The position numbers and the translations under genes were made by a program. A stretch of 64,000 nt of DNA, taken from IMG/VR virus record IMGVR_UViG_2974549561_000001, positions 1-64,000 of that record; one strand, 5' to 3'. The notes under the pieces were generated by a model. That model searched no databases, was not told where the DNA came from, and saw only the letters and a list, made by a program, of their open reading frames with translations. Every line of letters begins with the position of its first letter. Positions within the stretch are counted from its first letter, which is position 1. Positions 30,857-62,200 of this stretch are shown piece after piece. The stretch is from a virus. Its lineage: Duplodnaviria > Heunggongvirae > Uroviricota > Caudoviricetes.

Positions 30857-30857
30857 A

Positions 30858-31265: not shown

Positions 31266-31268
31266 TCG

Positions 31269-33098: not shown

Positions 33099-33111
33099 AG
33101 GTTTTTGCGAA
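33086..33111. other. cixR crossover site
   Basis: reverse complement TTCGCAAAAACC-TT-GGTTTAGGAGAA. Confidence 0.55.
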
Positions 33112-35949: not shown

Positions 35950-37869
35950 ATGGAACAGTTCAATATCAATAAAGGGGTGACGATCAAGCCTGGGCTTGAC
36001 GTGCTTCCCCCGCCAGTGACTGATGATGAATATCGCGCATTAATGGCCGGTGAGGACCGCTATCTGATGACGGAATCCAACACCCTGGAGGAAATCGAGG
36101 CTACGTTCTTCTATGACACGCCGATCCACTGGTGTGCTACGGATTTACTGGAGGCGATTAGTTCTACTCGTTTGCAGTTACACCGGACCATGCAGGCATT
36201 TGTCCGGGCATTGAACCAGAAGCTGAATGGTACCGGAATCTCTGCGGGGAGTGATAAAACGGGGGATGTGGCCCAGAGCGGCGCGCGCGCGATCGGCGGC
36301 GCTGAAATTGGCCGGGCACGTAACGTTAACGGGCTGCCGGTCTTGCCAGCCATTATTCCGCTCAGTGATGGTCAGACTATCAGCATTCTGTTTCATAGCC
36401 CGACAGCGGAAAACCGGATCACCAATAGCGATACGCTGGTTGCTTTCCAGTTCTTACTGAATAAAAAAGACGTTACTCACACCGTTGCTCCGATGAGTGG
36501 ACGTGATATGACGCTGGCGCAGGTCACCATGAAACTTGCCAACCTTGCAGAGAAAAACTCGGCAAAATTCCAGCGTGCGCAGAAGAAGAAAAAAGCCCTT
36601 GTTGATGAAATAACCCAACTACAGGCTGACAGTGACCAGAAAGAGGATGCCATGAGCGACCTCGCGGATCAGGTGGCAGCGGTAGAAGGGCAGAAGGCAG
36701 ATCTGGAGCAGAAAATTAACGCTGTTGCATCGGAAGCGGATTCTCTTTATGAAGAGAATGAGCGTTTGCAGACGGAGATTGATCAGCTCAATCGCACTGG
36801 TGGGCGCGATACCATTGCTCCAGCGGGGATGACTGGTGGGCACTCTCGCGCGCTGACGGATCGCCTTGCCAGTATCAAAAATCGTATGCATATGAACGGG
36901 GAAGTGACGCTCAGTAATGGTGCATCAATGAAGCAATTCATTGAGGACGGCGAAGGGTATATCCAGTTAAGCGATTCGGATGGCAGCGTGTACATGATCA
37001 AGGCTAAATCCATACAGGGTGTGGACATGGCAGATGCGATCGGCAAGCTGTTTAAAGCCTATAAAGCGGGTAATGTATCGGAATACCTGGTCCAACCAGA
37101 AGAACATAAACCGGAAAACGTCGAACCTGAACCAGCGGAGGATACCGGTAGCTCTTCGCCTGAACCAGAAGTCTCTGTAGGTGCATATCGATATGCCCTG
37201 CAAATGCGTCCGGCGGCCCCTGGCGCAATACCTGAAGGTAACAAAGCAATTCTGCCGCGCCCTGATGAAGGTGACCCGTATTATGAATATGCACGCTACG
37301 GCATTGCTACTTACGATACCCCGCTTTCTGATCAGCAAATGAGTGAGTACGACCTGAAGTTATTGCCTCACGAGGATTCTTTCGACTTCCTGGCGAAGAC
37401 ACTTACTAATGGTCCGTTTGGCAAATATGCACAAAAAGCTCTGGAGCTGGCCACCAGCTCACCAGACGAGTTCCGCGTAATGCTGAAAACTCAGTTTCAA
37501 AAAACTTTCCCCAATATTGCGTTTCCGGGGGGCGCTGGCACCGAGAAAATGGTGCAGAGCATGATCAATGCATTGCAGGCCGAAGTCGGTGAGATTACTC
37601 AGCCAGAACCTGCCCCGGCACAGCCTGATGAAACGGTTAGCGAAGCAGATGCAGCGGCTAATAAAGCCATTGAATATCTCAATAACGTGATGGATATGCA
37701 AAGCACTGACATGGCGGAGATCCGTAACGCCCGGGGTAATGTCCGGGAAGCGATTGCAGCCCTTCAGGCTGCCGGGCGTTTTGAGGAAAACGAAGAGCTA
37801 GTTAATGGCGCTGCTCGCCACCTGGCTGATCTGCTGGTAGCAATCCAGAAAGCGGGGGTAGCGGCATGA
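35950..37869 (+). CDS. darA: DarA antirestriction head protein precursor
   Basis: 639 aa, matching P1 DarA length; position in Dar operon. Confidence 0.7.
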   Translation: MEQFNINKGVTIKPGLDVLPPPVTDDEYRALMAGEDRYLMTESNTLEEIEATFFYDTPIHWCATDLLEAISSTRLQLHRTMQAFVRALNQKLNGTGISAGSDKTGDVAQSGARAIGGAEIGRARNVNGLPVLPAIIPLSDGQTISILFHSPTAENRITNSDTLVAFQFLLNKKDVTHTVAPMSGRDMTLAQVTMKLANLAEKNSAKFQRAQKKKKALVDEITQLQADSDQKEDAMSDLADQVAAVEGQKADLEQKINAVASEADSLYEENERLQTEIDQLNRTGGRDTIAPAGMTGGHSRALTDRLASIKNRMHMNGEVTLSNGASMKQFIEDGEGYIQLSDSDGSVYMIKAKSIQGVDMADAIGKLFKAYKAGNVSEYLVQPEEHKPENVEPEPAEDTGSSSPEPEVSVGAYRYALQMRPAAPGAIPEGNKAILPRPDEGDPYYEYARYGIATYDTPLSDQQMSEYDLKLLPHEDSFDFLAKTLTNGPFGKYAQKALELATSSPDEFRVMLKTQFQKTFPNIAFPGGAGTEKMVQSMINALQAEVGEITQPEPAPAQPDETVSEADAAANKAIEYLNNVMDMQSTDMAEIRNARGNVREAIAALQAAGRFEENEELVNGAARHLADLLVAIQKAGVAA

Positions 37870-38231
37870 CACTATCAGCTATTGAGTTAATGGATCTCAG
37901 CGATAAGTTGGATGCTCTGATGTCCAAAGCGGCTACCGCGCGTGGCATGGAGTTGCTGGATATCAGCGATGAAATTGACCAGATCATGCAACAGATGGGG
38001 TACGGTGTGTCCGGCGGCAGTAGTGGCGAGGAAAAACAACCTTCGGTACATGATGGCGTGCCAAAACTGGTTGCTGATTTCCTGGCTGATAAATTCGTCG
38101 ATCAGAGCACCGATGCATTTATCGGTACCTTGCAGGATTTGAGTCAATATGTTGGCACATACATCGACCTGGACCAGGTTAAACAGCACACGGCGGCATG
38201 GATAGCCGCCAACATTAAAGAGGCAGCGTGA
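37866..38231 (+). CDS. ddrA: DdrA
   Basis: 121 aa, ATGA overlap with darA. Confidence 0.55.
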   Translation: MTLSAIELMDLSDKLDALMSKAATARGMELLDISDEIDQIMQQMGYGVSGGSSGEEKQPSVHDGVPKLVADFLADKFVDQSTDAFIGTLQDLSQYVGTYIDLDQVKQHTAAWIAANIKEAA

Positions 38232-39569
38232 CATCCTCCACGCCCTTCGGGGTGTGGATTCCTGCTATGTTCAGGCTGTCGCCTGAATCATTTCGGAGGG
38301 TTCCTGCTTCAACGGGCGGTCTGACTGCACCATCCCTCCACAGGCAAGCACGGCGTGCCCCGCCGCTAAAATGTTACGAGCGCCGTTTACATCGGCGTTC
38401 GCTGTATATCCACAATCCCGACACACGAATTTACTTTGTGACAGGCGGTTTTCTTTCGCTGTATGGCCACAGCACGCGCAACGCTGGCTTGTGTACGCTG
38501 GCGGCACTGCCAGTACCTGACCGCCACGCCAGAGCTGCTTGTACTCAAGCTGGCGGCGCATTTCATACCAGCCCTGATCCAGTATCGAACGGTTTAAACC
38601 TGATTTTGCCCGGACATTGCGCCCCGGCTGACTTATCGTACCCGCCGCTGACTTTGACATGTATTTAACCTTCAAATCCTCAATGACAATCATTGCGTGG
38701 TTTTTGCTGATGATCGTTGTGATTTTATGAAGGTAGTCTCTGCGGATGTTTGCGATACGAAAATGCAGTCGCTGTATTTTGCGTTTCTGCATCTGCCAGT
38801 TGTTGCTGAATCTGACCTTGCGGCTTAACTGTCGCTGAAGTCTCGCCAGCTTCTTCTGGTTTTTCTGAAAACTATTTACAGGTTCAAAGACTGTGCCATC
38901 TGACAGCGTGGCGAGTTTAGCCACGCCAGCATCCAGTCCGACCATTGATGCTGAAGGGTGAACAGGAGTGGATACCTCTCTTTCTGTCTGAATACTGATG
39001 TACCACTTACCGCAGGACTGGCTGACAGTGACATTTTTCACAACACCCGTGACCTGACGGCTATTCCGGTAGCGCATCCAGCCAAGTTTCGGCAGAAAAA
39101 TACGGCTGTATTCCTGATCGAGCTTAACGCCCTGCGGGTAGCGGAATGCATCATTCTGTCCCCGCTTTTTGAATCGGGGAAAAGCAGCCCGATTCTGGAA
39201 GAAGTTTTTGTAAGCCCGCTCAAGGTCTTTCAGTGACTGTTGCAATGGCTGTGAGGGAGAATCTTTAAGCCATTCGGTTTCAGTGTCTTTTTTCCACTCA
39301 ACCAACCAGGAAGCCATTTTCGTGTAAGGGATGTATTTTTTACCGGCCTCATGATTCTCATTCTGAAGCGCCAGAGCACGATTGAAAACGAAACGACATG
39401 CGCCTGCGAAGCGCCTCATTTCACGCTCCTGTTGACCATCTGGTCTTAATCGGAATTTGAATGACACCTGTTGTTTCATGTCACTATTTTAAGCAAAAAT
39501 AGCCGGGAGGAAAACTGTGCCTTATATCCCCACTATGAGGCGCGTGGGGAGCGGCACATTGGATAAGGC
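38232..39569 (-). mobile_element. IS200/IS605-family tnpB-only insertion element
   Basis: single TnpB ORF, no tnpA; subterminal hairpins at both ends; TTAC next to the left end (minus-strand reading); occupies the ddrA-ddrB junction. Confidence 0.7.
38271..39479 (-). CDS. tnpB: TnpB (OrfB) RNA-guided nuclease family
   Basis: 402 aa; N-terminal OrfB_IS605 region and C-terminal zinc finger CACCGH...CRDCG with RuvC-like segment. Confidence 0.85.
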
Positions 39570-39578
39570 GTAACAGGG

Positions 39579-42566
39579 ATGAGCTTAAGCGATCAGGTGG
39601 TTATGGCCACCAGCATAGAAACGCTGATCGAGCTGCTAAAGAACCTGCCCGATTACGGGCGGGTTTCGTATGTGGTGACAGCGAAGGGAGACGAGGTAAA
39701 AACGGCGTTTGATATCGTCGATGCCTCAGCTCTTTTGGTATCCAATACTCTGGATGGGAAAATTAATCCAGACTATCCCCAGGAACTTCAGCCGCGCGAC
39801 CGGACCCGCGCATCCAGCCTTCTTCAGGTCAACCAGATATCCAAGGATTTGCGTCCTGCCCAGCTTACCGATTCCGGTTTATCCAGCCATGGCGCGCCGA
39901 TAATTGGTGAGGACAATGCCGTTGAGTCAGGTAATGGGCGGACCATGGGGATCATCAAAGCCTATCAGGACGGCAATGCGGATCGGTATCGTGAGTACCT
40001 GATTGAACATGCGACCGAATTCGGCATACGACCTGAAAAGGTTGAATCAATGACGGCTCCGGTACTGGTGCGCCGCCGGTTAACTAAGGTTGACCGCGTT
40101 CAGTTTGCCAAGGACTCAAATATTTCTGATCTTCAGGAAATGGCAGCCAGTGAAAAGGCTTTTGTTGATGCCGACAGCATAACACCGGCGATGATGGCGC
40201 TTTTTAACCCGTCAGAAAGCGGAGATCTGCTTAGCCGCAGTAATGACGCGTTTATTCGCGGATTTATGACGCAAGTTGGTGCCACACAGGCGGCTGGCCT
40301 TGTAACTGAAGATGGGCGACCAACACGGCAACTTGTAGACCGTATACAAAACGCGATCTTTGCCAAGGCATATAAGGATGCGCGCCTGGTAAGAATGGTT
40401 GCAGAAGAACCTGATCCGGATATGCGTAATGTTCTGACGGCGCTTAATGCGGCAGCCAATGATTTTGTCCAGATGCAGGCTTTATCAGGAGAAGCGCACA
40501 AGCAGGCTGTGACAACTATTGTTGATGGTATTGAGACAGCGGATAGTCTCGATAAAAAGGCGCTGGCGGCATTGAAAGATGCGGTAGACCTGGTAAGGCA
40601 ATCGAAGGAGTCAGGCCAACATATTACCGATGTTATTGCTCAGGGGGATATGTTCAGCGAAACAGCCCCGGAAGTGAAAGCTCTCGCGTTGTTCATCGTC
40701 GCGAATAACCGTAGCGCGAAGCGTATGGCCACCGCCTTTAAATTGATGGCTCAACGTATCAATGATGAGTTACAGCACCAGGGCCAGGCGCTGGGGGATA
40801 TGTTTGGCGGTGGTGATGTGTCGTTACAGGATATCCTTCGCCAGGTGTCTCAGGAACTGGAAAACGAAGGCATGCAAGGGATATCCGGCGGTCTTTTCGA
40901 GTCCGTTTCCGGCGGTAGTTACAACGGTGTTGCTCCATATACCAGTTTGCTATTACATCGGGCATCCGGCATCAAAGACATTATTCATCTGATCAGGCTG
41001 CTTTCCCGTACAGATCCCCAGGATGAACAGCTTGTACAAGTGCTTGCGCATTTTGTTCGAATGCCTGTTGCCGACGTGAATAAATGGTGCCGATTATTCG
41101 GTATCAGCAATTCGTTACTTCGCGGATTGTTAAATCACGCATCCTCCCTTGGGCGCGACGGCTTTGATGAGATAGCGCAGGCGATAAAAAACGGAGATAT
41201 GCCACCAGCTATTGACTGGTTTTCCATTCGCCCAACCAGGGTGAAAGCATTCCTTAGCGCGGCGCATTCGGCATCACCATTGGCAGAAATGATTCAGAGG
41301 TTGTCGCTCATATTCACAGACCATACCGCGTTGGGTGATCTGACTCTGGACGAGATGAAAGAAGCCTCCATTCAGTGGGCCGATCAACAAAATGAGGTTA
41401 ACTCAGACTTCTTGCCAGCATTCAGGAAGGCCGTTAGTAAAGCGGATGATGCCCGTGGAATTCTGAAGGCATTTAAGGCATTGCAAAGTCGGGTTAATAA
41501 ACATGTCGGTGATATCGATGGGGTAACGGCGGAAGGCAGGGATATCCTTAAAGAGCACGGCATAACGCCAGAGTTTATTGATGAGATCAGGACGGATATG
41601 CAGCGTGAGGTCGTATCGTCCCTGCAAATCGTAGCCAGAGCGTTGGCGGATGCTAATCCGAAGAGTGCGGCCATTGTTAACCGGGTTATTGGTGATATTG
41701 AAGCATCGGAGGGCATGGGGGCGCTGAAACTCTTCCTTTCGCGAGCGTTTAATCCTAACGGCAATATTCTCCCTGGCATTATTGGTGAGGCTAAAAAGTA
41801 TGTCAGTGAAGAAGAACTTGAGCAGCTTGACCAACTACTTAAGCGATTCTCATATAACCCGCAGATACGCTGGCAAATGAATCAGCGAAGTATGGGTTCG
41901 GTCCACGAGAAAGTGTTATCTGCCATGAACAGTGCGATCGCAAACTCATCCGTATCTGAAGAAAAAGCTCTTGAGTGGGCCGACTCTTTTATCACAGAAG
42001 AAGTGGAAGAAGCCCGCGCTGGACAGAATGGTGGGATAGACCTGCGCAAGGAACTTGCTGATATTTATCGCCTGACCGGCGGGAAAATATCGACCTTATC
42101 AAAGGTAGTTCACCACCAGGGAAGGGCATATGCAAATCTTAATGGTGTTGTTGCTGTCAATTTGAACGATGAAAATGCAAGTGCACTGTGGCACGAGCTG
42201 GGTCATCATCTTGAGTACAGTAACCCTGGTTTGTTAGAGAAAGCCCGGTCATTCCTGAAGGCCAATGTTGAAGGGGATAAGCCATCTTTCGTCAATATCG
42301 GTGGGCGTGGCAAGCCTGAATGGTGCTTCAGATCTCGATTGAGTAATATTTATATGGCGAAGGTATACCCGCCAGCCTCAGTAAGTAACACCGGGAAAAT
42401 TCGGCAGAAATCACCGACTATTTCCAAAACGTCAGCAACGGAAGTATTCTCTATGGCTCTTCAGTTGTATCATGACAAAGAGGCCGCTGCCGCATCACTG
42501 ATGAATGGTGACGGATTGCTGGAACTGTTATTAGGTGTGGCAAAGGAGCTAAATAATGCAGATTAA
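39579..42566 (+). CDS. ddrB: DdrB
   Basis: 995 aa following ddrA; assignment by synteny and size. Confidence 0.6.
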   Translation: MSLSDQVVMATSIETLIELLKNLPDYGRVSYVVTAKGDEVKTAFDIVDASALLVSNTLDGKINPDYPQELQPRDRTRASSLLQVNQISKDLRPAQLTDSGLSSHGAPIIGEDNAVESGNGRTMGIIKAYQDGNADRYREYLIEHATEFGIRPEKVESMTAPVLVRRRLTKVDRVQFAKDSNISDLQEMAASEKAFVDADSITPAMMALFNPSESGDLLSRSNDAFIRGFMTQVGATQAAGLVTEDGRPTRQLVDRIQNAIFAKAYKDARLVRMVAEEPDPDMRNVLTALNAAANDFVQMQALSGEAHKQAVTTIVDGIETADSLDKKALAALKDAVDLVRQSKESGQHITDVIAQGDMFSETAPEVKALALFIVANNRSAKRMATAFKLMAQRINDELQHQGQALGDMFGGGDVSLQDILRQVSQELENEGMQGISGGLFESVSGGSYNGVAPYTSLLLHRASGIKDIIHLIRLLSRTDPQDEQLVQVLAHFVRMPVADVNKWCRLFGISNSLLRGLLNHASSLGRDGFDEIAQAIKNGDMPPAIDWFSIRPTRVKAFLSAAHSASPLAEMIQRLSLIFTDHTALGDLTLDEMKEASIQWADQQNEVNSDFLPAFRKAVSKADDARGILKAFKALQSRVNKHVGDIDGVTAEGRDILKEHGITPEFIDEIRTDMQREVVSSLQIVARALADANPKSAAIVNRVIGDIEASEGMGALKLFLSRAFNPNGNILPGIIGEAKKYVSEEELEQLDQLLKRFSYNPQIRWQMNQRSMGSVHEKVLSAMNSAIANSSVSEEKALEWADSFITEEVEEARAGQNGGIDLRKELADIYRLTGGKISTLSKVVHHQGRAYANLNGVVAVNLNDENASALWHELGHHLEYSNPGLLEKARSFLKANVEGDKPSFVNIGGRGKPEWCFRSRLSNIYMAKVYPPASVSNTGKIRQKSPTISKTSATEVFSMALQLYHDKEAAAASLMNGDGLLELLLGVAKELNNAD

Positions 42567-46067: not shown

Positions 46068-48798
<2,731 letters not shown>

Positions 48799-48864: not shown

Positions 48865-51800
48865 ATGAACAAGCTATCTATGGGTGTGTTTCGCTGTTCA
48901 AGTGTCAGCGAAATATTGAAATACATTAGGACAATAACATCTCACCGAGCGCCGATTAAATACGGCGTGGAAAAGGTGGAAGGCAAAAGCTATGACCGAC
49001 TGCGCCGGGAGGCGAATCAGAAGGCGATAGATTTGCTTAATTCGCTGGTGGACGGCGCGACACTGACAGATGAACAGCGCCAGATCCTGGCCGGGTACAC
49101 TGGTGAAGGCGGCATTGGCGGGTCCGTCTCCGAATATTACACACCAAAGCCTATCGCTGAAGGTGTCTGGGAGATCATGAAGCTCTACGGCGCGGACGTA
49201 GGTAACACTCTGGAACCATCGGCGGGAACCGGCGTTTTTAATGAGACAAAACCGGTTGGTACGGTGATGACCGCGACTGAGATCAGCAGTGTTTCCGGTC
49301 GTATAAACCAGTTGTTACACCCGGAAGACAGCGTACAGATTTCCCCGTTCGAACAGCTGGCTGTAAGCACGCCTAACGATTCATTCGACCATGTTGTGGG
49401 TAACGTTCCGTTCGGCGGTCGTGATAACACACGCAACATCGATAAGCCTTACGCAGAAGAAACGGACATGGGTTCTTACTTCATGCTCCGCATGCTGGAC
49501 AAGATAAAGCCTGGCGGATTCATGTGTGTGATTGTGCCGCCGTCCATTGTTTCAGGTTCAAACATGAAGCGGTTACGCCTGCGCCTATCACGGAAAGCTG
49601 AATTTCTTGGCGCTCACCGCTTGCCTACCGGTACTTTTGACGCAAACGGGACCAGTACAGTCGTTGATGTGGTGCTGATGCGCAAACATCCGGCAGAGAT
49701 GGCTGAGAAAATCCCCTTGGTGGATGAAAGCACTCTTGAATCGGCAAATGTGCTTTGGCCAACGTTTATTTATGGCAAGTGGTTTGAAAAGGATGGCCGC
49801 CGGTTTGTTCATGGTACCCAGGAAAAGGGCTTCCAGGGGCGTATTGAGGTTCGTGCCGACGGGCAGATTGATAACCAGGCTCTTAAAGCGAAGCTGATTC
49901 ATCGTTTCGAAAGTCGTATCGACTGGTCTTTGCTCAATATGGCTGAACCGTCACCGACCGCAGACGTTGTTGATGAAGGGGAAATGCGCCTGATTAATGG
50001 CGTATGGCAAAAATATGCTGGTGGTCGCTGGATTGAATCTGATGCAGGGAAGGAGCTGAAGATTGATGTTGCCAGTTATGGCGCGGACAGCTGGGAGGCT
50101 CTTCAGCGTAACCTGACTACAACAGAAGGCCGTCTCGGTATGACATTTACCCAGATGGCAAATGTCCGCGATAAATACACCACATCAATCAGCGACGATA
50201 TGGTGCAGCTGGTGGACTGGATTAACAGCCAGCCTGAAAAATACCGTGAACGCTTGTATCGCGGGGCGATGATTGGCCGGATGTTAATTGAATATCAGGA
50301 CATGAAGGCCGCCGGGCATAGTGCTGAACAAATCGAACAGCAGCGCCTTTCTCTGGTATCCCGTTTGCAGGCAGAGATTGACCGTTTTGGTAACCCCGGT
50401 CGCGGTCCGATAGCGAAATTATCGGGGAGCGGTGCGCGCGCCTGGTTTGCTTTCCGTGGTGCAATTAAGCTGGATGGCACTATTTCTGACGAGCTGACAG
50501 GAAAACTGGTTACGCATGATTCCAGCGCCAGTTATGACTCCACCAGCTATCAGGACACCCTGCGTTATCTCTACAGTGATCTCACTCGCGATCCAATCCA
50601 GCTCGATGATTTCCGCCTTGCGTTTACCGGCGAACTGCCAGCCAGTGATGACGAGTTGCTTAATTTATTGGCCAGCACCCCTGGCATTGCGGTTTCACCG
50701 TATGGCGGGATTGTTCCGTTCGCCCGCGCCACCAGCGGCGACATTAACGAGATAGTGGCACCAAAACAGGAATTCCTTGCCACACTCCCCGACGGTCCAG
50801 TAAAGAACAACGTCCTTAATCAGCTGGCAGCGATCGAAGAGAAGCGCATCAAGACGCCAGCAGAGAATATCCGCTTTAAGCTCAATAGCCGTTGGTTCGA
50901 CCGTTCCGTCATTCTGGAATTTTTGCAGGAAAACGGCTATCCGGATCTTCGCTATGTGCAGTCAGTGCAGCTGGAAGGCGACGAAATGGTTTCTGACACC
51001 TATCACGGTGGTGATGGTCTGTTCGTCGGGCACCGATACGGTGTCGTCCAGCGCAAGGATAAAGAAACAGGCGAGATCCGCTACGAGTGGGACCGTAAAT
51101 CAGGTGAAAACGCGACCGGGTTCCCGGCACAGCTGGAAAAGTATCTCAATGGTGCGCGTATCGGTGGCAAAGATAGCGCGACGGCGAACGGCTACCGCGA
51201 GCAGATGGCACTGCTTGAGGACCAGTTCAATAAGTGGATCAAGACGCACGATCGCTACGATGAGCTGGTTGCCAAATACAACGATGTGTTCAATAGCAAT
51301 ATCCCGTATGAACACTCTGGCGATCCGCTTGGGTTGAAGGGATTAAGCGGTAAGCGCCAGCCATTTGATTACCAGAATAGCGAGGTGCGCCGACTGTCCG
51401 AAGATGGGCGCGGCATCCTGGGCTTCGGCACCGGGCTGGGTAAAACCACGACCGCGCTGGCGCTTGAGGCGTTCAACTATGAGAACGGTCGCTCCACCCG
51501 TACTGCGTATGTAGTGCCTAAATCAGTGCTGGAAAACTGGTATTACGAAGCAAAAGAATTCCTGAGTGAAGAGGCATTCAGTAACTACCTGTTCGTCGGT
51601 CTTGATGTGCTGATGGATGGCGATCAGATTCGCCAGGTGCAGGTGCTCGATGAGAACGGTAAACCTGTTCTTGGTACTGATGGCACTCCAGTTATGCGCG
51701 ATGCTCTTAAGCTGGCAGATGAAGCCACTATCACGGCGCGGATGAACGCGATCCCGCACTCAAATTACCGTGCAGTCGTGTTTACCAAAGAACAATACGC

Positions 51801-54800
51801 CCGCATTCCGCTACGTGATGACACCGTAGATGAGCATGCACAGGATATGCTTTATGACTTCGTTGCCGCCGGACGCGTAGCCAGCGCAATGGACTCCGAC
51901 TCCCACCGCAAAGAGGCCGCGCGTCGCCGGGTATTGTCGGAGTATTCAGATACCGGCACCGAAAAAGCAGAGAAGTATCCGTACTTTGAGGATATGGGCT
52001 TCGATAGTGTGATCGCTGACGAAGGTCACAACTACCGCAATAGCTATAAAAATGGTCGCGAAGCGTCACAACTGGCCTATCTGCCCACCAGCGCGGTGGC
52101 GCAATCGGCGCGAGATATGGCAATTAAAAACGCGTACCTGATGAAAAAGAATGGTGGGCGCGGGCCGGTTCTCCTGACTGCAACGCCAGTCGTTAACACC
52201 CCGATCGATGCATACAACATGCTTTCTCATGTTCTGCCGAAGGAATACTGGCAGAACATGGGGATCTACGGTCCTGATGACTTCGTTAAATTCTTCGGCA
52301 AGACCAGGCTGGAAACGGTACAGAAAATTAGCGGTGAAGTTGAAGAAAAAATGGCGCTGGTGGGCTTTGAAAACCTTGATGCGCTGCGCGGTATATTCCA
52401 TCGCTGGGTAACGCTTAAAACGGCGGAAGACGTTAAGGATACCGTGGAGATCCCGGAGCTGGACGAACACCAGCAGGATGCACCACTTACTGAAGAACAA
52501 CTGGCGGCGTATGAAGAATTGCGTCAGCAGGCGGAAGCGGCGGCCAAAGCCAACAATGGCGTAACGACCTCGGTCAATGAAGACGGCGTGATTGAGCACG
52601 AGAAAGCCCGTCCGATCTTCTCAATAATCAGGGATATGGACCGCGTATGTACTGACATGGACCTGTACTATCGCCGGATCACCTATCGTTTCCTGCCGGA
52701 GTACGCCGATGCGGTGCAGCAGCTGGCGGACAGTTTGCCTAAACAAGCCACCAGCGAAGACGACGACAGTGATGATTCAATCACGCAGCAATCGCAATAC
52801 TCCCTGATAGATAAGGGCGAGTTTATTCAGTTGCAGGTTCCGGAAGCGTTCGAGCAGGAAGTGAATAAGCGCCTGGCCAGGTTTGGCATTGACGAACAGA
52901 CCGTAACTCACCCCGTTACGCCCAAATACGCGAAGCTGATTGCCACGCTGAAGGAGTTTTTCCCGGAAGGTAAGCAAATCATCTTCACCGATGAAAAAAC
53001 GCAGCACCAGAAGCTCAAGCGCATTATCTGCAATGCTCTTAACCTTGAACCTTCAAAGGTGGGGATACTGAATGCTCAGACGGTTGCCGAGGCAGGTAAA
53101 ACCGGTAAGAAACTGAAAGCGGTTAAACCGCCGAAAGAGTTACCGGATGAACCAACAGATGCACAGATAGCGAAATACAACGAGCAAATGGCTCTGTATG
53201 ACGCCTATATCGCGCAGCAAAATGAAATGTCGCTGGGCGGGCTGGAAAAGATTGCTGCCGACTTCCAGGAGGGACGGACTCCGATCATCATCTGCAACAA
53301 AAAGGCAGAGGTGGGTATCAACCTGCATCGAGGAACGACTGACATCCATCATCTGACGTAGCCATGGACACCAGCCAGTATCGCACAGCGTAACGGTCGC
53401 GGTGCCCGAGTTGGCTCCAACCGTGCAAGCGTTCGCGTTCACTACTACTGCGGCAAGGGTTCTTTCGATGAATACCGACTGAAGACGCTGAAGCGTAAAG
53501 CAGGCTGGATCTCCGATATCCTCCGTTCAGATAAGTCAGAAATGGAGAACGCCGACGCCAACGATATGATCGAAATGCAGATGTATACCGCTAAGGATGA
53601 TGGCGAACGTCTGGCAATGATGCAGGTTCAAATGGATAAGGCGAAAGCCGCGCAACGCGCTCGCCAGAAAGAACAGGCTACTATCGACCTTCAGAACTAC
53701 ATCAAGGCGCAGCACGCAGCTGGCGAGGATGTGGAGGTACTTACCGCTGAATTAGAGCGAAGCAAAGCGGAACTTGAAAAGACCACCGCCGAGGTAGCTA
53801 AATTCAAACAGGCGGTAATGGCCAAAGCAGCTGATAACGCAGACTGGAAAGCCCGCTGGGGTAGCGTCCATCACACAGACCGTATGTTGTTAGCACAGTA
53901 TCGCGCGTCGTTGAAAAGCGCCATTCAACGCAAGGCTAATATCTCTCAAGCCATCTCCCGCTATGAGAAATTATTGAACCGTACTCAGAAGGCCGCGACG
54001 GATATCAAACGCCTGCGCCCGCTGGTGGAGGATGCAATAAATAAAGGCATTCTGGATGTAGATCCTGACCTGGTTAACCATGCGAGTGAGTTCCTTGTTA
54101 TCGGCGATCGCTCATGGCGTGTAGGCCAATACTACGATTGTGCCGGTGATATCGTTCGCATTAAGTCGCTGGACTTCGACAGCCAGCGCGCAGACGTGGA
54201 GATTATCTTTACCTTCAAAGGTACCAAATCGGGTAACTGGGATGTGAAGACGCTGGATAAACAGGTTGATGTAACTCCCGATGAAGATGCTGTTATGCAG
54301 AAAATCAGTGGCGGCGTCTCCATCGCCGGGATTAACGACATCATTTCCTGTGACGATTTCTACCGTTTCCAGCAGCGCGGCATGATCAAAATCACTGACT
54401 CATACGGCGTTCAGACTACAGAGTCAGGCTATAGCATTGATTTTGTTGGTACCTATACGGACCCACTGAAGCATGCGGTTTACCCGGATCGCCGTGACGG
54501 CGCGCTGAAGTCGTCAATTGCAAAATGGGTGCTTGGTATGATGTCGGAAGGGAATAACCGCCAGATCCGTTCGGCAGAAACATTCCTGGTTGAATTGTTT
54601 GGCTCCAATTATGGCGATGTAATCGCGTCATACGGAGATACGCTATCCCCTGAAGCAATTCAGGAGAAAATAGCGGATGCGATCGCCAGAATGCCGGAAA
54701 AAACAAGCCAGGGGGCTACTCGTAACGGGGATTCTGAACTTGAAGTCACCAATGCCATTTTCGGTACCAATGAGTTCCGGGCGTCAGATTATGAGATCAC

Positions 54801-55632
54801 CACAGCACAGTTTGGCACCATTGGCATTTACAGCAATAAAGCCGAGATCAAGCAGGCAATGGACTCAGCAAGCGCGCGCATCGCAGCAGAACGGGAAGCC
54901 AATCTGAATCATGCAGTCGCCGCGCTGACTCAATCGTGGGTAACAGCAATCAGGGAGGCCGCCACCACAGGGAAAATCACACCTGCAATAGCGGATGTCG
55001 TAAACGACGGCTCTAAATTTATGGATGCCTATCAAATGGATGCGGTGAAGTTGCCATCAGCCTATGGTCAACTCAGCTATCGCATGACCTACAACCTGGT
55101 ATCAATGTTTTCCGACCTTGCCATCCTTGGGCTGGTGGATCTTAACGAGGTTACGCCGGAATTGCTCAGCATGCGCAAGAATCATGTGGAGATATTGCAG
55201 AGAATTAACACGGTTCTTGCTGGGCGCACCGATGAAGAGAAACAGGCCGACGCTGATCGGATAAACCTAGCCCTTGGCAACATCACGGAGGAAGAGATTG
55301 CCGCCAGAAACGAGAAACAAGAAGAGTTATCATCAATACAGGGTGATGCCACCAGCATAGCTCAGTCTCTTGGTCTGAATTATCGCGTATCCACCGCCGA
55401 CCTGAAGATGATGTACGCACCAAAATTCGCCGCTGGCGAGGTATTTGGGCTTCAGGAAGCCTCAGGCATGAAAGGCGTTCTTTTCCGTGCGAAAGACGCA
55501 ATCAAGGCGAAATTCGGCGCTCGCTGGCTGCCAGCGAAGGCGAAGAACAGCGATTTCCCGGGTAACTGGTGGATTATCGAGACAAAACACAACGTGGCGG
55601 ACGTTCTGGCCGTCATCCAACAATACGCATAA
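48865..55632 (+). pseudogene. darB: darB (methyltransferase-helicase antirestriction protein) with one in-frame TAG at 53359-53361
   Basis: ORFs 48865..53361 and 53542..55632 are in the same frame; total 2255 codons equals P1 DarB length; N-terminal MTase motif VVGNVPFGG, helicase motif HHLT*PWTPASIAQRNGRGAR spans the stop. Confidence 0.8.
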
Positions 55633-55665: not shown

Positions 55666-56106
55666 ATGGCCACACTATCTGATACAATAAAACCGAATAA
55701 AACATATCTTGAGGCGGTACTCCGTACAGCGTTGTTAGGAAAGACAGAAGACGAATACGTTGATTTCTTCCTGTCAGGGCTACGCGGGCGATTACTGAAA
55801 AATCCCCGCCTGTACCGCAGCTATGGTCCATACTGGCCGGAAATTAAAAAATTATTACTGGAGCGCGGTTATGGTAATTTCGGTCGTCTCGTTGACCGTG
55901 ACGTTCGCAAAATTTACCGTTATGACCGCCCGGCGCTAACACTCATAGCCGCGACGCTCTACAGCCAGGAGCGTTTTGATAATGGTCAGATATACTCAGC
56001 CTGGCATTTACTGCCAGTGCCTGAAGAAGTTGACGACCAGGACTATGAGTTTGAGTCTTACGATTTGGAAGTTGAAGCCTTGGCACAGGCTGGAGAGAAA
56101 ACTTGA
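55666..56106 (+). CDS. ulx: Ulx-like hypothetical protein
   Basis: 146 aa after darB; synteny only. Confidence 0.45.
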   Translation: MATLSDTIKPNKTYLEAVLRTALLGKTEDEYVDFFLSGLRGRLLKNPRLYRSYGPYWPEIKKLLLERGYGNFGRLVDRDVRKIYRYDRPALTLIAATLYSQERFDNGQIYSAWHLLPVPEEVDDQDYEFESYDLEVEALAQAGEKT

Positions 56107-56351
56107 AAAAGCGATACTACACAGTAAAGCATGGGACGCTACGAGCATTACAAGAGTTTGCTGATAAGCATAACGTTGAGGTGCGCAGGGAAGGGGGAAG
56201 TAAAGCTCTGCGCATGTACCGTCCGGACGGGAAATGGCGTACGGTCGTCGATTTCAAAACTAACAGCGTTCCCCAGGGCGTCCGCGACCGGGCATTCGAA
56301 GAATGGGAGCAGATCATCATAGATAACGCATTGCTCCTGAATGCTGATTAA
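56103..56351 (+). CDS. lxc: Lxc/Bof-like C1 co-repressor modulator, TTG start
   Basis: 82 codons with GGAGAG SD; size, TTG start and position match P1 lxc as I recall. Confidence 0.5.
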   Translation: MKKRYYTVKHGTLRALQEFADKHNVEVRREGGSKALRMYRPDGKWRTVVDFKTNSVPQGVRDRAFEEWEQIIIDNALLLNAD

Positions 56352-56388: not shown

Positions 56389-57519
56389 TTACACAGTATC
56401 AATGTGTCTGCTAAGGAATCTCCCGAACTGATTTGTTGACCCAAAATAGTTAGGATAAGCCTTTTTAAGAGATTTAATGTTGTTAGTGGCAAGCAGCACC
56501 GCAATTAATACTTCAGGATCCGCATCATCCTTATTAAGTTCCTGGAGGGCTTGTTCCGATTCTTTTTTCCTAAAAGGTTTCACAGAAACAAGAAACTTTC
56601 CAGTATCCTTGCCATTTTTTGTTATGGCGTTTCTCATCCTCACCAAAAAGAATCCATTATGGTTTTTGGGCAGGCTTTTCTTTAGGTTTGCATCTGATGT
56701 CAGCTTCATTGCAAATGTATATGTACTTAATTTTGAGCGAACAGATAAAGCCTCCTCCAATGTTTTAAGCTCTGTTTGATAATTTTTGATGGTTTCATCA
56801 TCAAGAATACAGGCACCTTCATCATGAGCAACTAGGCATCCAGAAAGATAAAAAAATCTTCTCCACTCAGGGTGACCTTCATTAGAAGTTTTCAGCTTAA
56901 TATTTTCAAGTGTATCTATTATCTCCAGACTTGTTGCCCAAGCATGTTGGAGTTCTGTTCTTAGTTGTACTTCGATTTTAGTTTTACTCCACGGATTGTT
57001 ACCGTTTTCTTCATCAAAACAACTATATGCAAGGTGAATGCCACTATATCCGCTTGGCTTTGGAGTTAAATAGTCATATTCCTTTAAGATTTTATGCTTG
57101 GAGCGACTTTTAACTAGTCGGTCTTTTAGTTTCTTTAGTTGTTCGATGTTTCTAACTATAGCTCTACATCCGCCAATATCCTGCATTCTAGTAAGGGCTA
57201 TTGCATTATTTGTTGCGCCGCCGTCAAGACTTGGACGCTCCAGTTTATCAATTATTGTGCTAAGTCTTTTTAGGCGTCTTGCAACAATAATCTTATTCTC
57301 TTTATCAACTTTTTTTGCAGCCCTATCAAGATGATTTTTCATTAGCATCAATGGATATAAATGAAGCTCGCGGAAATTTTGAATCATTTTAATTGCTTCT
57401 TCTCGCTCTGCGCCCTCACAACCATGTCTAATTTTTCTGGCTGCTTTTTCTATTTGAGATTTCGAATATTTAAGCTCGCATTTTTGGCTTTGATATACTT
57501 CACTGCCCATTACTAACAT
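56389..57519 (-). CDS. CapRel-like fused toxin-antitoxin (RelA/SpoT toxSAS domain plus C-terminal regulatory domain)
   Basis: DIGGCRAIV, YSGIHLAY and EVQLRTELQHAWA motifs of the RelA/SpoT synthetase fold in the N-terminal two-thirds; about 130-aa C-terminal extension; start codon ambiguous (TTG 57528, ATG 57519/57510). Confidence 0.6.
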   Translation of the reverse strand: MLVMGSEVYQSQKCELKYSKSQIEKAARKIRHGCEGAEREEAIKMIQNFRELHLYPLMLMKNHLDRAAKKVDKENKIIVARRLKRLSTIIDKLERPSLDGGATNNAIALTRMQDIGGCRAIVRNIEQLKKLKDRLVKSRSKHKILKEYDYLTPKPSGYSGIHLAYSCFDEENGNNPWSKTKIEVQLRTELQHAWATSLEIIDTLENIKLKTSNEGHPEWRRFFYLSGCLVAHDEGACILDDETIKNYQTELKTLEEALSVRSKLSTYTFAMKLTSDANLKKSLPKNHNGFFLVRMRNAITKNGKDTGKFLVSVKPFRKKESEQALQELNKDDADPEVLIAVLLATNNIKSLKKAYPNYFGSTNQFGRFLSRHIDTV

Positions 57520-58479: not shown

Positions 58480-58517
58480 GGGGAGCCCGCAGAATTCGGA
58501 AAAAATCGTACGCTAAG
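58480..58517. repeat. Tn1721-type 38-bp terminal inverted repeat
   Basis: GGGGAGCCCGCAGAATTCGGAAAAAATCGTACGCTAAG read directly; tnpA stop lies inside it. Confidence 0.85.
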
Positions 58518-61479
58518 GTTTTCCGGGCATCCGTAAGGGCCGAAACTTCCCGTCTTCCAGTCTGCGGCTCTGCCGCCAGACGTAATCGCCGGTTAGGTTG
58601 ATGTGCTCCCAGCCCAGCGGCGACAGGAATTGCAGCAGCTCGCCGTCCACCGGCTTGCCGGCCTCGACCAACCCCTGGGTGGCGCGTTCCAGGTACACCG
58701 TGTTCCACAGCACGATAGCCGCCGTCACCAGGTTGAGGCCGCTGGCCCGGTAGCGCTGCTGCTCGAAGCTCCGATCCCTGATTTCCCCAAGGCGGTTGAA
58801 GAACACCGCCCTGGCCAGCGAGTTGCGCGCCTCACCTTTGTTCAGGCCGGCATGCACGCGGCGGCGCAGTTCAACACTTTGCAGCCAGTCCAGGATGAAC
58901 AGCGTGCGCTCGATCCGGCCCAGCTCGCGCAGGGCCACGGCCAGTCCGTTCTGGCGCGGGTAGCTGCCGAGCTTGCGCAGCATCAGCGAGGCGGTGACGG
59001 TGCCCTGCTTGATCGAGCTGGCCAGGCGCAGGATGTCGTCCCAGTGGGCACGCACGTGCTTGATGTTCAGGGTGCCGCCGATCAGCGGGCGCAACGTCGG
59101 GTAGGCTTGCACGCCCTGCGGCACGTACAGCTTGGTTTCGCCGAGGTCGCGGATGCGCGGCGCGAAGCGGAAGCCTAGCAGGTGCATCAGGGCAAAGACG
59201 TGATCGGTGAAGCCGGCCGTGTCGGTGTAGTGCTCCTCGATCCGCAGGTCGGACTCGTGGTACAGCAGGCCGTCGAGCACATAGGTGGAATCGCGGACGC
59301 CGACATTCACCACGCGGGTGCTGAACGGCGCGTACTGGTCGGAGATATGGGTATAGAACAGCCGTCCCGGCTCGCTACCGTACTTCGGGTTGACGTGCCC
59401 GGTGCTCTCGCCCCGGCCACCCGCGCGGAAGCGCTGGCCATCGGAGGATGAGGTCGTGCCGTCGCCCCAGTGGGCGGCAAAGGCGTGGCGATACTGGTGG
59501 TTGACCAGCTCGGCCAAGGCCGCCGAATAGGTTTCGTCGCGGATGTGCCAGGCTTGCAGCCAGGACAGCTTGGCGTAGGTCAGGCCGGGGCTCGACTCGG
59601 CCATCTTGGTCAGCCCGAGGTTGATCGCATCACCGAGGATTGCGGACAGCAGCAACGTCCTGTCTTTGGCCTCGGCCCCGTCCTTCAAGTGGGTGAAGTG
59701 GCGGCTGAAGCCCGTCCAGTCGTCCACGTCCATCAGCAGTTCGGTGATCTTGATGCGCGGCAGTAACTGGCTGGTTTGGTCGATCAGCGCCTGCGCCCGA
59801 TCCGGCACCGCCGCATCCAGCGGGGTGATTTTCAGCCCTGACTCGGTGAGGATGGCATCGGGCAGCTCGTTGTCCTTGGCCAGGCGGGTGACGGTGGCCA
59901 ACTGCTCGTCCAGCAGCTGCAAACGCTCTTCCAGGTACTGGTCGCTGTTCGGGTTGATCGCCAGGGGCAGGGCCTGCTCGCGCTTGAGTGCGGCGAACTT
60001 CTCGGCCGGCAGCAGGTAGTCGTCGAAGTCGCGGAACTGCCGCGAGCCCTTGACCCAGATGTCGCCGGAGCGCAGGGCGTTCTTCAGCTCGGACAGGGCG
60101 CAGATTTCGTAGAATTTCCGGTCGAGGCCTTCCGGGGTGATCACCAGCGGCTTCCAGCGCGGCTTGATGAAGGCCGTGGGTGCATCGGCCGGCACCTTGC
60201 GCAGGTTGTCGGCGTTCATCTCACGCAGGGTCTGCACGGCTGCCAGCACGCCTTGCGCGGCCGGCGCGGCGCGCAGTTCCAGCACCTCCAGCAAGGCCGG
60301 CGTGTAACGGCGCAGGGTGGCGAAGTTCTCGCCGACCAGGTGCAGGTGGTCGAAGCCTTCCGGCCGGGCCAGCAGCTCGGCCTCGCTGACGCTCTCGGTG
60401 AACTCGTCCCAGGGAATCACCGCCTCGATGGCGGCATAGGGGTCGCTGCCGCTTTCCTTCGCTTCCAGCAGCGCCTGGCCGATCCTGGAGTACAGGCGCA
60501 CCTTGTCGTTGATCGCCTTGCCCTGCTTCTGGAACTGCTGCTGATGCTTGTGCTTCGCGCCGCTGAACAGCTTGACCAGGATGCGGTCATGCAGATCGAC
60601 CAGCTCATCGATCACGGTCGCGGTGCTCTCCAGCACCACGGCGGCCAGGGTCGCGTAGCGGCGCTGCGGCTCGAACTTACCGAGGTCTTTGGGCGTCATC
60701 TGCCCACCCTCGCGGGCCAGCTTGAGCAGGCGGTTCTGGTGGATGTGCCGGCCCAGGCCTTCGGGCAAGTCCACCAACTGAAATGTCTTCAGCCGCTCGA
60801 TGTGTTCCAGCATGTGCCGAGAGTTGGGTTTCAGCGGTGCCTGGCGCAGCCAGGTCAACCAGGTGATGCTGCTGCCGGCCTTGAGCTTCAACAGCTCGTC
60901 CAGCTTGGCCCGATGCGAGTCCGTGAGTGGTTCGACCAGGGCGCGGTAGACCCGCCGATTGGCTCGCGCAATGGCTTCCGAGCAGGCCCGGTCAATCACG
61001 CTCAGCGCCGGCAGGATGCGTCGTTTCTGCCGTAGGCTCTCCAGGGCCTGACCGGCCAGCAGCAAGCCTTTGTCGGTCTGCTGGGCCAGCTCGGTTAGCT
61101 CGCGCACCAGGGCGCGGAAGTCGGACAGGCCGAACGGGGCCAGTTGCAGGTAGGTGCGCAGTTCCTGGGCATGCTCGCGACGGGTCACGTCGCGCTCGCC
61201 GTACTTTGCCCAGCTCGCCGGCTCGGCCTGGACTTGCTTCGCCACCCACAGGATGACCGGCTCGGGCAGCTCGCTGTCGGTTCCCAGCGCGTAACCGGGG
61301 TAGCGCAGCAGGCAGAGCTGCACGGCGAAGCCGAGGCGGTTGGCGTCGCCGCGTCGCTGGCGGATCAGCGACAGGTCGGAGTCGTTGAAGGTGTAGTAGC
61401 GGATCAGGTCATCCTGGCTTTCCGGCAGCGCAAGCAGGGTGTCCCGCTCCGTGGCCGAGAGGATCAAGCGACGCGGCAT
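58513..61479 (-). CDS. tnpA: Tn3-family transposase TnpA
   Basis: 988 aa; closely resembles Tn21/Tn1721 TnpA from memory. Confidence 0.95.
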
Positions 61480-61482
61480 GTG

Positions 61483-62043
61483 TCAGTCGTCCGTGCGGAG
61501 GTACTGGTAGAGGGTTTCCCGGCTGATGTTGAACTCGCGGGCAAGCTGCGCCTTGGGCTCGCCGGCCGTCGCTCGCTGCCGCAGGGTAGCAGCCTGCTCA
61601 TCGGACAGGGCTTTCTTGCGGCCCCGGTACGCGCCACGCTGCTTGGCCAAGGCGATGCCCTCACGCTGCCGCTCGCGGATCAGGGCGCGCTCGAACTCAG
61701 CGAAGGCCCCCATCACCGACAGCATCAGGTTGGCCATCGGCGAGTCCTCGCCAGTGAACACCAGGCCCTCCTTCAGGAACTCGATGCGCACGCCGCGCTG
61801 AGTCAGCTTCTGTACCAAGCGACGCAGGTCATCGAGGTTGCGGGCCAGCCGATCCATGCTATGCACCACCACTGTATCGCCTTCGCGGACGAAGCTCAGC
61901 AGCGCTTCGAGCTGGGGGCGCTGGGTGTCCTTGCCCGATGCCTTGTCGGTGAACACCTTGCTCACCTGGGTTTGTTCCAGCTGGCGTTCCGGGTTCTGGT
62001 CAAAGCTGCTGACCCGGACGTAGCCGATGCGGTGCCCCTGCAC
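61483..62043 (-). CDS. tnpR: serine resolvase TnpR
   Basis: 186 aa; MQGHRIGYVRVSSFDQNPERQ N-terminus typical of Tn1721/Tn21 resolvases. Confidence 0.95.
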   Translation of the reverse strand: MQGHRIGYVRVSSFDQNPERQLEQTQVSKVFTDKASGKDTQRPQLEALLSFVREGDTVVVHSMDRLARNLDDLRRLVQKLTQRGVRIEFLKEGLVFTGEDSPMANLMLSVMGAFAEFERALIRERQREGIALAKQRGAYRGRKKALSDEQAATLRQRATAGEPKAQLAREFNISRETLYQYLRTDD

Positions 62044-62200
62044 GATGTCTCCTTGGTTGAAGGCGGCTTAAGTGCACTTTCTGTTCCGTTGTGCCTCAAA
62101 GCCCATTTCTGTCAGGCTGAAATCTATAACCTTCGCGGGCATGTGTCAAAAAATGGGAAAGCAGACTCTATTCTGACGAAGCGGCGCGGCCCTGCCTGAC
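62044..62200. other. res (resolution) site region
   Basis: intergenic region between divergent tnpR and mcp, where res lies in Tn21-subgroup elements; subsites not mapped. Confidence 0.45.

What the first reader, a model, noticed from the sequence alone, without database searches (positions are those of the whole stretch)
53350..53370. darB is interrupted by a single in-frame amber codon inside a helicase motif
ORFs 48865..53361 and 53542..55632 are in the same frame and separated only by TAG at 53359-53361. Together they make 2255 codons, exactly the length I recall for P1 DarB. The stop sits in HHLT*PWTPASIAQRNGRGAR, a conserved helicase motif, so a truncated product should lack helicase function. 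This is either a recent nonsense mutation inactivating antirestriction, an amber allele suppressed in the host, or a sequencing error.
Basis: seen in the sequence. Interest (0 to 1): 0.6.

Follow-up and report, generated by a model that had tools for sequence, protein, structure and literature searches.

The report
Inherited amber stop truncating phage darB
The anti-restriction gene darB of this P1-like Salmonella phage-plasmid (SJ46) carries a real, inherited single-base nonsense mutation that cuts off the last third of the protein; it is an ordinary loss-of-function allele, not a sequencing error and not a recoding signal.

Summary
TAG at 53359-53361 is the only internal stop in a 6768-nt frame (48865..55632). 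That frame is colinear with P1 darB (2255 codons, 98.5% nt identity). P1 and four close intact alleles have TTG (Leu1499), so the change is T>A at 53360.

The stop lies in the Pfam Helicase_C match, 9 codons before motif VI (QRNGRGAR). It removes motif VI and 756 C-terminal residues.

The window is Salmonella phage SJ46 (KU760857), bases 1-64000. Its published Table S1 already lists the two halves as separate CDSs, without comment.

Sequencing error is excluded. The same allele occurs in three complete Salmonella plasmids, one IMG/VR contig and at least 24 other assembled contigs.

It is lineage-specific: 63 other natural loci have TTG, and none of 384 E. coli records matches exactly.

Suppression is unlikely. 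The whole element encodes only tRNA-Asn, -Thr and -Met, and no readthrough-type structure or restart signal follows the stop.

All other Dar genes are intact.

Best reading: a recent, tolerated knockout of a non-essential accessory gene. SJ46 still plaques and lysogenises.

Low interest; already known kind.

The parts
48865..53361 (+). darB 5' part: codons 1-1498 plus the premature TAG. The predicted product is 1498 aa, 167.7 kDa.
   Evidence: ORF list; translation; 98.5% nt identity and colinear with P1 darB; mass. Listed as CDS 54 (48880..53361) in SJ46 Table S1.
48865..48954 (+). Codons 1-30, corresponding to the DarB capsid-targeting sequence defined in P1. Retained in the truncated product.
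   Evidence: 29 of 30 residues identical to P1; the one change, A23T, is shared with the intact pTB502 allele. The N-terminal 30 residues suffice for capsid targeting in P1 (PMC9024508).
49297..49737 (+). N6-adenine DNA methyltransferase domain (residues 145-291), upstream of the stop.
   Evidence: Pfam N6_Mtase E 1.1e-8 and Eco57I E 1.1e-7.
51361..51594 (+). SF2/SNF2 helicase N-terminal lobe, best-matching stretch (residues ~833-910, includes GLGKT motif I), upstream of the stop.
   Evidence: Pfam SNF2-rel_dom E 1.7e-11 and ResIII E 7.6e-6; alignments to SNF2 ATPases.
53224..53415 (+). Helicase_C domain match (residues 1454-1517), interrupted by the stop.
   Evidence: Pfam PF00271, E 1.6e-7 with Leu restored.
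53359..53361 (+). Premature amber codon TAG, L1499* (TTG>TAG, T>A at 53360).
   Evidence: Sequence. TTG in P1 and four intact alleles. 63 TTG against 1 TAG in IMG/VR plus metagenomes.
53386..53409 (+). Helicase motif VI (QRNGRGAR, residues 1508-1515), now downstream of the stop and untranslated.
   Evidence: Translation; aligned to QAxDRxxRIGQ of SNF2 ATPases.
53362..55632 (+). darB 3' remnant: codons 1500-2255 plus the natural TAA. The frame is still open and shows no Pfam match.
   Evidence: The first in-frame start is ATG 53542, with no Shine-Dalgarno-like sequence. Listed as CDS 55 (53542..55632) in SJ46 Table S1.
55666..56106 (+). ulx, a Dar component that aids DarB localisation. Intact, 146 aa. 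Downstream of darB on the same strand, so it may suffer polarity.
   Evidence: 144/146 identical to P1 Ulx; P1 map; role from PMC9024508.
35337..38231 (+). hdf (35337..35948), darA (35950..37869) and ddrA (37866..38231). All are intact and the same length as in P1.
39579..42566 (+). ddrB, intact (995 aa). Separated from ddrA by an inserted tnpB gene.

Best explanation
A single T>A transversion at 53360 changed Leu1499 (TTG) of darB to amber (TAG) in the ancestor of the SJ46 lineage. These are P1-like phage-plasmids of about 103.4 kb that carry blaCTX-M-27 and circulate in Salmonella. The mutation is real, has been inherited, and is carried by many isolates.

Translation stops inside the C-terminal helicase lobe. 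The product is 167.7 kDa instead of 251.6 kDa. It keeps the N-terminal capsid-targeting sequence, the N6-adenine methyltransferase domain and helicase motifs I-V. It lacks motif VI and the C-terminal 756 residues.

Inferred steps: without motif VI the SF2/SNF2 motor cannot hydrolyse ATP productively, so the DarB arm of the Dar system is lost or crippled. That arm protects incoming DNA in cis against EcoK/EcoB-type type I restriction. The DarA arm (hdf, darA, ddrA, ddrB) is untouched.

The loss is tolerated for two reasons. darB is dispensable for growth. The element also spends most of its time as a vertically inherited plasmid kept by antibiotic selection.
For: Shown here:
- TAG is the only internal stop in a frame colinear with P1 darB.
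- The ancestral codon is TTG in P1 and four close intact alleles.
- The allele is identical in three complete Salmonella plasmids (12.2 kb identical), one IMG/VR contig and 24 contigs read (listed in 25 blocks of the collection) that carry exactly the 1498-aa product.
- One of those contigs has two further SNPs, so the allele has persisted through some divergence.
- The allele is rare overall. The count is 63 TTG against 1 TAG in IMG/VR plus metagenomes. No exact match occurs in 384 E. coli records. Only 3 of 555 plasmid records match at 100%.
- The stop lies within Helicase_C, before motif VI.
- The methyltransferase and helicase N-lobe lie upstream of the stop.
- There is no suppressor tRNA in the window or the whole sibling element.
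- The RNA downstream of the stop folds no better than shuffled controls (z +0.87).
- There is no SD-preceded in-frame restart and no excess of promoter-like sites.
- All other Dar genes are intact.

From the literature:
- Deleting darB makes P1 sensitive to EcoB and EcoK (PMC11109961).
- SJ46 (also called P1-CTX) is inducible, forms plaques, and lysogenises three E. coli strains and seven Salmonella serovars (PMC11117986).
Against: No experiment shows that helicase motif VI or the C-terminal third is needed for DarB antirestriction. The mechanism is explicitly described as undefined (PMC11109961). The truncated protein could therefore keep some activity.

The host chromosomes were not available, so a host amber suppressor cannot be formally excluded.

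The age of the mutation is only loosely bounded. The closest intact allele differs at 50 of 6768 nt, so the immediate ancestor has not been sampled.
Confidence: 0.85

Rival explanations
1. Sequencing or assembly error in the deposited record; the true codon would be a sense codon.
For: The SJ46 record does show signs of sequence editing elsewhere. Eight of nine single-base differences from a sibling plasmid are ATG start codons where the sibling has GTG. P1 also has GTG at the two of these starts that were checked, ssb and lydA.
Against: The TAG is present in three independently deposited complete plasmids from different strains and places. It is also in an IMG/VR contig and in at least 24 NCBI and Logan contigs that encode exactly the 1498-aa product. 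A T>A substitution in non-repetitive sequence is not a typical platform error.
Confidence: 0.01
2. The amber codon is read through, by a host or phage suppressor tRNA or by programmed readthrough, so that functional full-length DarB is still made.
For: The 756 codons downstream are still open, and most private changes are synonymous. From general knowledge, not tested here: a C after UAG is a comparatively weak termination context in E. coli.
Against: There is no tRNA in the window. The whole element has only Asn(GTT), Thr(TGT) and Met(CAT) (the SJ46 paper likewise reports asparagine, threonine and methionine tRNAs). The stop is not conserved: 63 TTG against 1 TAG. No stable structure lies downstream (z +0.87). 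The allele occurs in several hosts. The open downstream frame is equally expected from a recent mutation. One sublineage has already gained a non-synonymous change there, S1857G. Basal readthrough would give far fewer than the ~40 copies per virion reported for P1.
Confidence: 0.03
3. The truncated 1498-aa protein is still packaged and keeps a useful activity, for example methyltransferase-based activity. Alternatively the truncation is adaptive. It could escape a host defence that senses DarB, or free capsid volume for a genome enlarged by the 8.6-kb transposon.
For: The capsid-targeting N-terminus and the methyltransferase domain are retained (PMC9024508). The allele has spread to many isolates. 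The DarB mechanism is undefined. SJ46 is 103.4 kb against 94.8 kb for P1.
Against: Spread can be explained by hitch-hiking with blaCTX-M-27 on a clonal element. Larger P1-like elements keep darB intact: P7 at 101.7 kb and RCS47 at 115 kb (annotated full-length). There is no recurrence of truncation at this site. Other darB disruptions lie at scattered positions. All carriers share one allele, so there is no independent evidence of selection.
Confidence: 0.1
4. darB has become a two-gene system, with the C-terminal 696 aa translated separately from ATG 53542, as the published annotation implies.
For: SJ46 Table S1 and GenBank list 53542..55632 as a separate CDS (AMR59973.1).
Against: No Shine-Dalgarno-like sequence precedes ATG 53542, or any of the next in-frame starts. 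Promoter-like sites are not in excess: 1 found against 3.5 expected. The fragment has no Pfam domain. It would lack the N-terminal capsid-targeting signal and motif VI (53386-53409 lies upstream of 53542). The CDS call is simply the output of an ORF finder.
Confidence: 0.02

Closest known systems
DarB of Escherichia phage P1 (AAQ13985.1; 2255 aa; capsid-packaged methyltransferase-helicase protecting against EcoK/EcoB type I restriction)
   Same: Same locus and synteny (prt - darB - ulx - lxc). Same length, with no indels. 98.5% nt identity, with 80 synonymous and 20 missense differences. Same domain order.
   Different: Codon 1499 is TAG instead of TTG. The predicted product ends before helicase motif VI and lacks the C-terminal 756 residues.
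Intact darB of Salmonella plasmid pTB502 (NZ_CP034821.1, WP_127836228.1), the closest sampled intact allele
   Same: 99.3% nt identity. Shares the A23T change in the capsid-targeting region. Its element also carries the tnpB insertion between ddrA and ddrB.
   Different: TTG at codon 1499. There are 50 nt differences, clustered in the 3' half, so it is not the direct ancestor.
Laboratory P1 delta-darB and darB- mutants (Iida et al. 1987; Piya et al. 2017; Gonzales et al. 2022)
   Same: Expected to share the phenotype: viable phage whose DNA is sensitive to EcoK/EcoB-type restriction on entering a new host (PMC9024508; PMC11109961).
   Different: This is a natural point-nonsense allele that leaves a 1498-aa N-terminal product with the packaging signal. 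It is not a deletion. Its phenotype has not been measured.
Other naturally disrupted darB copies in P1-like elements
   Same: Five of 63 other IMG/VR and metagenome loci show a stop or a frameshift in darB. The protein cluster holds shorter members of 1278 and 1830 aa.
   Different: The lesions are different and at different positions. Some are probably assembly errors, for example L069 at 0.85x coverage.

Membership tests
P1 DarB orthologue (Punavirus antirestriction methyltransferase-helicase) | Position between prt (divergent) and ulx-lxc, colinear with P1 darB | tested here: met
   P1 map. Window ORFs prt 47080..48789(-), ulx 55666..56106 and lxc 56103..56351 are 563/569, 144/146 and 82/82 identical to P1.
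P1 DarB orthologue (Punavirus antirestriction methyltransferase-helicase) | Sequence identity over the full 2255 codons | tested here: met
   6768 nt in both, no indels, 104 nt differences, 98.5% identity.
P1 DarB orthologue (Punavirus antirestriction methyltransferase-helicase) | N6-adenine methyltransferase domain | tested here: met
   Pfam N6_Mtase E 1.1e-8, above the cut-off.
P1 DarB orthologue (Punavirus antirestriction methyltransferase-helicase) | Complete SF2/SNF2 helicase core (motifs I-VI) in one uninterrupted polypeptide | tested here: not met
   The N-lobe is present (SNF2-rel_dom E 1.7e-11). The stop at codon 1499 falls inside Helicase_C and removes motif VI.
P1 DarB orthologue (Punavirus antirestriction methyltransferase-helicase) | N-terminal capsid-targeting sequence (first 30 residues) | tested here: met
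   29/30 identical to P1. Actual packaging cannot be tested here.
P1 DarB orthologue (Punavirus antirestriction methyltransferase-helicase) | Antirestriction activity against EcoK/EcoB-type systems | not testable with these tools
   Needs plating-efficiency assays.
Pseudogene by recent nonsense mutation | Sense codon at the site in close relatives | tested here: met
   TTG in P1 and four intact alleles. TTG in 63 of 64 natural loci.
Pseudogene by recent nonsense mutation | The stop is reproducible in independent assemblies | tested here: met
   Three complete plasmids, one IMG/VR contig and at least 24 further contigs.
Pseudogene by recent nonsense mutation | Signs of relaxed constraint downstream of the stop | tested here: inconclusive
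   There are no further stops or frameshifts. Private changes downstream of the stop are six synonymous and one missense. One sublineage has a derived missense change, S1857G. There is too little divergence to test.
Programmed stop-codon readthrough or suppressor-dependent gene | Stop codon conserved among relatives | tested here: not met
   63 TTG against 1 TAG. No exact match in 384 E. coli records.
Programmed stop-codon readthrough or suppressor-dependent gene | Cognate suppressor tRNA encoded by the element | tested here: not met
   No tRNA in the window. Only Asn(GTT), Thr(TGT) and Met(CAT) in the complete sibling element.
Programmed stop-codon readthrough or suppressor-dependent gene | Stimulatory RNA structure 3' of the stop | tested here: not met
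   MFE -29.3 kcal/mol against a shuffle mean of -32.0, z +0.87.

The most novel reading that the evidence does not exclude
The truncation is not neutral. The 168-kDa N-terminal fragment keeps the capsid-targeting signal and the methyltransferase, so it may still be packaged and injected. Shedding the helicase C-lobe and tail might have been selected in Salmonella. Possible reasons are avoiding a host defence triggered by full-length DarB, or freeing head volume for a genome enlarged to 103.4 kb by the blaCTX-M-27 transposon.
Probability: 0.07. Interest if true: 0.5.

Novelty: already known. Interest (0 to 1): 0.12.

Why it matters
The significance is modest.

First, it predicts that SJ46 (also called P1-CTX) and its relatives are naturally DarB-deficient. 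These elements spread blaCTX-M-27 among Salmonella and E. coli. If the prediction holds, type I restriction of the EcoK/EcoB family should limit their transfer into new hosts more than it limits P1. This is relevant to reading the published transduction host-range data and to using SJ46 as a model.

Second, it gives a ready-made natural allele for asking whether the helicase C-lobe and the C-terminal third of DarB are needed for antirestriction. The mechanism of DarB is still undefined.

Third, it corrects the public annotation. AMR59972.1 and AMR59973.1 are two halves of one disrupted gene, not two genes.

Tried and rejected
- A scan of genome contigs (one genome per species) for the 37-mer containing TAG found nothing. 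The allele is not in the species-representative genomes, which is uninformative about its frequency.
- SJ46 accessions KU760857 and NC_031129 are not in the annotated collections. I established identity instead from the coordinates in Table S1 and from exact protein matches.
- Piya et al. 2017 (PMC6011833; PubMed 28509398) and Lobocka et al. 2004 (PMC523184) are not held. Statements about the DarB phenotype rest on papers that cite them.
- I looked for an independent promoter, an SD sequence or a restart for the 3' fragment. None was convincing.
- I looked for a readthrough-type RNA structure. None was found.
- I asked whether the tnpB insertion between ddrA and ddrB was a second lineage-specific lesion in the Dar system. 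It is not. Many P1-like plasmids with intact darB share it.
- I asked whether the start-codon editing pattern in the SJ46 record could explain the TAG. It cannot, because the TAG is in independent assemblies.

Full report
**Observation**

The + strand reads ...CAT CAT CTG ACG TAG CCA TGG ACA..., with TAG at 53359-53361. The ORF finder lists 48865..53361 (1498 aa) and 53542..55632 (696 aa) in the same frame. Translating 48865..55632 gives 2256 codons with one internal stop, at codon 1499. The 60 codons between the TAG and the first ATG of the second ORF are open. The description is therefore accurate.

**What the gene is**

A 1-kb query around the stop matches 16 phage records at 97.5-99.1% identity. 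Fourteen are annotated as darB, DarB or a DNA methylase (some as methyltransferase and helicase), and four as hypothetical protein.

P1 darB is 6768 nt. It lies between prt (divergent) and ulx-lxc. The window has the same neighbours. Prt is 563/569 identical, Ulx 144/146 and Lxc 82/82.

Against P1, the window's darB has no indels and 104 nt differences (98.5% identity). These fall in 80 codons with synonymous changes, 20 with missense changes and one nonsense change, TTG>TAG at codon 1499. Four close intact alleles from plasmids also have TTG. The mutation is thus T>A at 53360, Leu1499>amber.

**Where it falls in the protein**

The N-terminal 1498 residues carry N6_Mtase and Eco57I methyltransferase matches at residues 145-291. 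They also carry SNF2-rel_dom and ResIII matches around residues 833-910. The C-terminal 756 residues match no Pfam family.

With Leu restored, residues 1454-1517 match Helicase_C (E 1.6e-7). Alignments to solved SNF2-family ATPases (1z63, INO80, SMARCAD1) are weak, with E about 3e-4. They are nevertheless consistent with each other. They pair DarB GINL...IHHLTLPWTPASIAQRNGRGARVG with GINL...[24 protein letters not shown]. The stop therefore sits between motif V and motif VI.

The product is 167.7 kDa instead of 251.6 kDa. It lacks motif VI (53386-53409) and everything after it.

**Source of the window**

The coordinates in Table S1 of Yang et al. 2017 (PMC5241659) for phage SJ46 (KU760857, 103,445 bp) coincide exactly with the window:

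- CDS 53, prt, 47080..48789
- CDS 54, 'helicase, DarB', 48880..53361
- CDS 55, 53542..55632
- CDS 56, ulx, 55666..56106
- CDS 57, lxc, 56103..56351

The 1493-aa and 696-aa products are exact matches to AMR59972.1 and AMR59973.1 of Salmonella phage SJ46. The window is therefore SJ46 bases 1-64000.

The public annotation already shows the split as two CDSs. The paper's main text mentions neither darB, nor a pseudogene, nor a stop codon.

**Is it an error?**

No. Three complete Salmonella plasmids are identical to the window over the 12.2 kb fetched, including the TAG. They are CP031191 (S. Indiana 222), CP064676 (SJTUF14076, Shandong) and CP064673 (SJTUF14146, Guangxi). No CDS is listed across darB in any of them, which fits a pseudogene call.

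An IMG/VR contig is identical over 2825 nt. The exact 1498-aa product is recorded on further contigs from NCBI and Logan assemblies. 24 contigs were read, and the index lists the product in 25 blocks of the collection. One contig (SRR14477285) carries the TAG plus two extra SNPs, showing persistence through some divergence.

**How common is it?**

It is lineage-specific.

- Only 3 of 555 plasmid records match a 201-nt query at 100%.
- None of 384 records from complete E. coli genomes matches a 61-nt query exactly.
- 64 IMG/VR and metagenome loci matching the flanks give 63 TTG and 1 TAG.

darB as a whole is usually intact. Among those 64 loci, five others show a stop or frameshift at other positions, and some of these are probably assembly errors.

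**Suppression, readthrough or a two-piece gene?**

- The window has no tRNA genes.
- The complete sibling element is 99.96-99.98% identical to the window, with the C-segment inverted. It has only tRNA-Asn(GTT), -Thr(TGT) and -Met(CAT). The SJ46 paper likewise reports tRNAs for asparagine, threonine and methionine.
- The 100 nt from the stop onwards fold no better than shuffles (z +0.87).
- The first in-frame start after the stop is ATG 53542. Neither it nor the next fifteen in-frame starts has a Shine-Dalgarno-like sequence.
- Promoter-like sites are not in excess.
- A separately made C-terminal fragment would lack both motif VI and the N-terminal capsid-targeting signal.

**Mechanism and consequences**

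From the literature:

- DarB is the last Dar component loaded into the P1 head, at about 40 copies.
- Its first 30 residues suffice for capsid targeting.
- P1 delta-darB lysogens yield virions on induction (PMC9024508).
- Deleting darB makes P1 sensitive to EcoB and EcoK.
- The molecular mechanism is undefined (PMC11109961; PMC12810830).

The truncated product keeps the targeting sequence, 29/30 identical to P1, and the methyltransferase. It may therefore still be packaged. By general knowledge of SF2 ATPases, loss of motif VI should abolish the motor. This last step is inferred, not shown.

hdf, darA, ddrA, ddrB and ulx are all intact and the same length as in P1. Only the DarB arm is hit. 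ulx lies downstream on the same strand and might suffer polarity, which is also an inference.

SJ46 (also called P1-CTX) is still inducible. It forms plaques and lysogenises three E. coli strains and seven Salmonella serovars (PMC11117986). This fits the loss of a non-essential accessory function.

**Age of the mutation**

There is no second disabling change. Nine positions are private to this allele relative to five intact alleles. Seven are synonymous, one is missense (A2001S) and one is the nonsense change. The closest intact allele (pTB502) differs at 50 nt, so the direct ancestor has not been sampled. There is too little variation within the lineage to test for relaxed constraint.

**Verdict**

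This is an ordinary, inherited loss-of-function nonsense allele of a well-known gene in a published phage genome. The split is already visible in the public annotation, but it has not been discussed in the papers I read.

Noticed in passing
window 804, 34178, 34590, 43679, 44531, 45049, 45132, 61861: Outside the C-segment junctions, the window differs from sibling plasmid p14076B at nine single bases. Eight of these are the first base of an ATG that opens an ORF in the window, where the sibling has GTG. P1 also has GTG for ssb and lydA. This looks like annotation-aware editing of the deposited SJ46 sequence (GTG>ATG at start codons) and not like biology.
   Followed up: partly
window 56389..57510 (-): A 373-aa ORF with a RelA/SpoT domain sits immediately beyond lxc, where P1 has its res/mod genes. 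By source phage and length it corresponds to CapRel^SJ46, the fused toxin-antitoxin anti-phage system studied by Zhang et al. 2022 (PMC9712102).
   Followed up: partly
window 38271..39479 (-): A tnpB gene (402 aa, RNA-guided endonuclease TnpB family) is inserted between ddrA and ddrB in the darA operon. In P1 these genes are 12 nt apart. The insertion is shared with many P1-like plasmids of E. coli, E. albertii and Salmonella, including ones with intact darB, so it is not specific to this lineage.
   Followed up: yes
window 29868..33102: This segment is inverted relative to p14076B, and the mismatches cluster at the two junctions. It is the Cin-invertible tail-fibre C-segment typical of P1.
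   Followed up: partly
window 58514..62044 (approx.): A Tn3-family (TnAs1-type) transposase and a resolvase form part of the Tn1721-like blaCTX-M-27 region described for SJ46. By mapping to p14076B, the bla gene itself lies just beyond the window end.
   Followed up: no
L067 (TAA at darB codon 1268); L057, L063, L071 (frameshifting indels); L069: Other natural P1-like contigs carry different darB disruptions. Five of 63 loci are affected. Some are from low-coverage metagenome contigs and may be errors. The protein cluster also holds shorter members of 1278 and 1830 aa.
   Followed up: partly
L080 (Logan SRR14477285), equivalent to window 46541 and 54433: This sublineage carries the TAG and has two further SNPs. 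One is a derived missense change (S1857G) in the untranslated 3' remnant of darB.
   Followed up: partly
protein P0002 / P0001: The longest contig carrying the truncated allele is 288,965 bp, far larger than the 103-kb element. This suggests a cointegrate with a larger plasmid or a misassembly in one sample.
   Followed up: no
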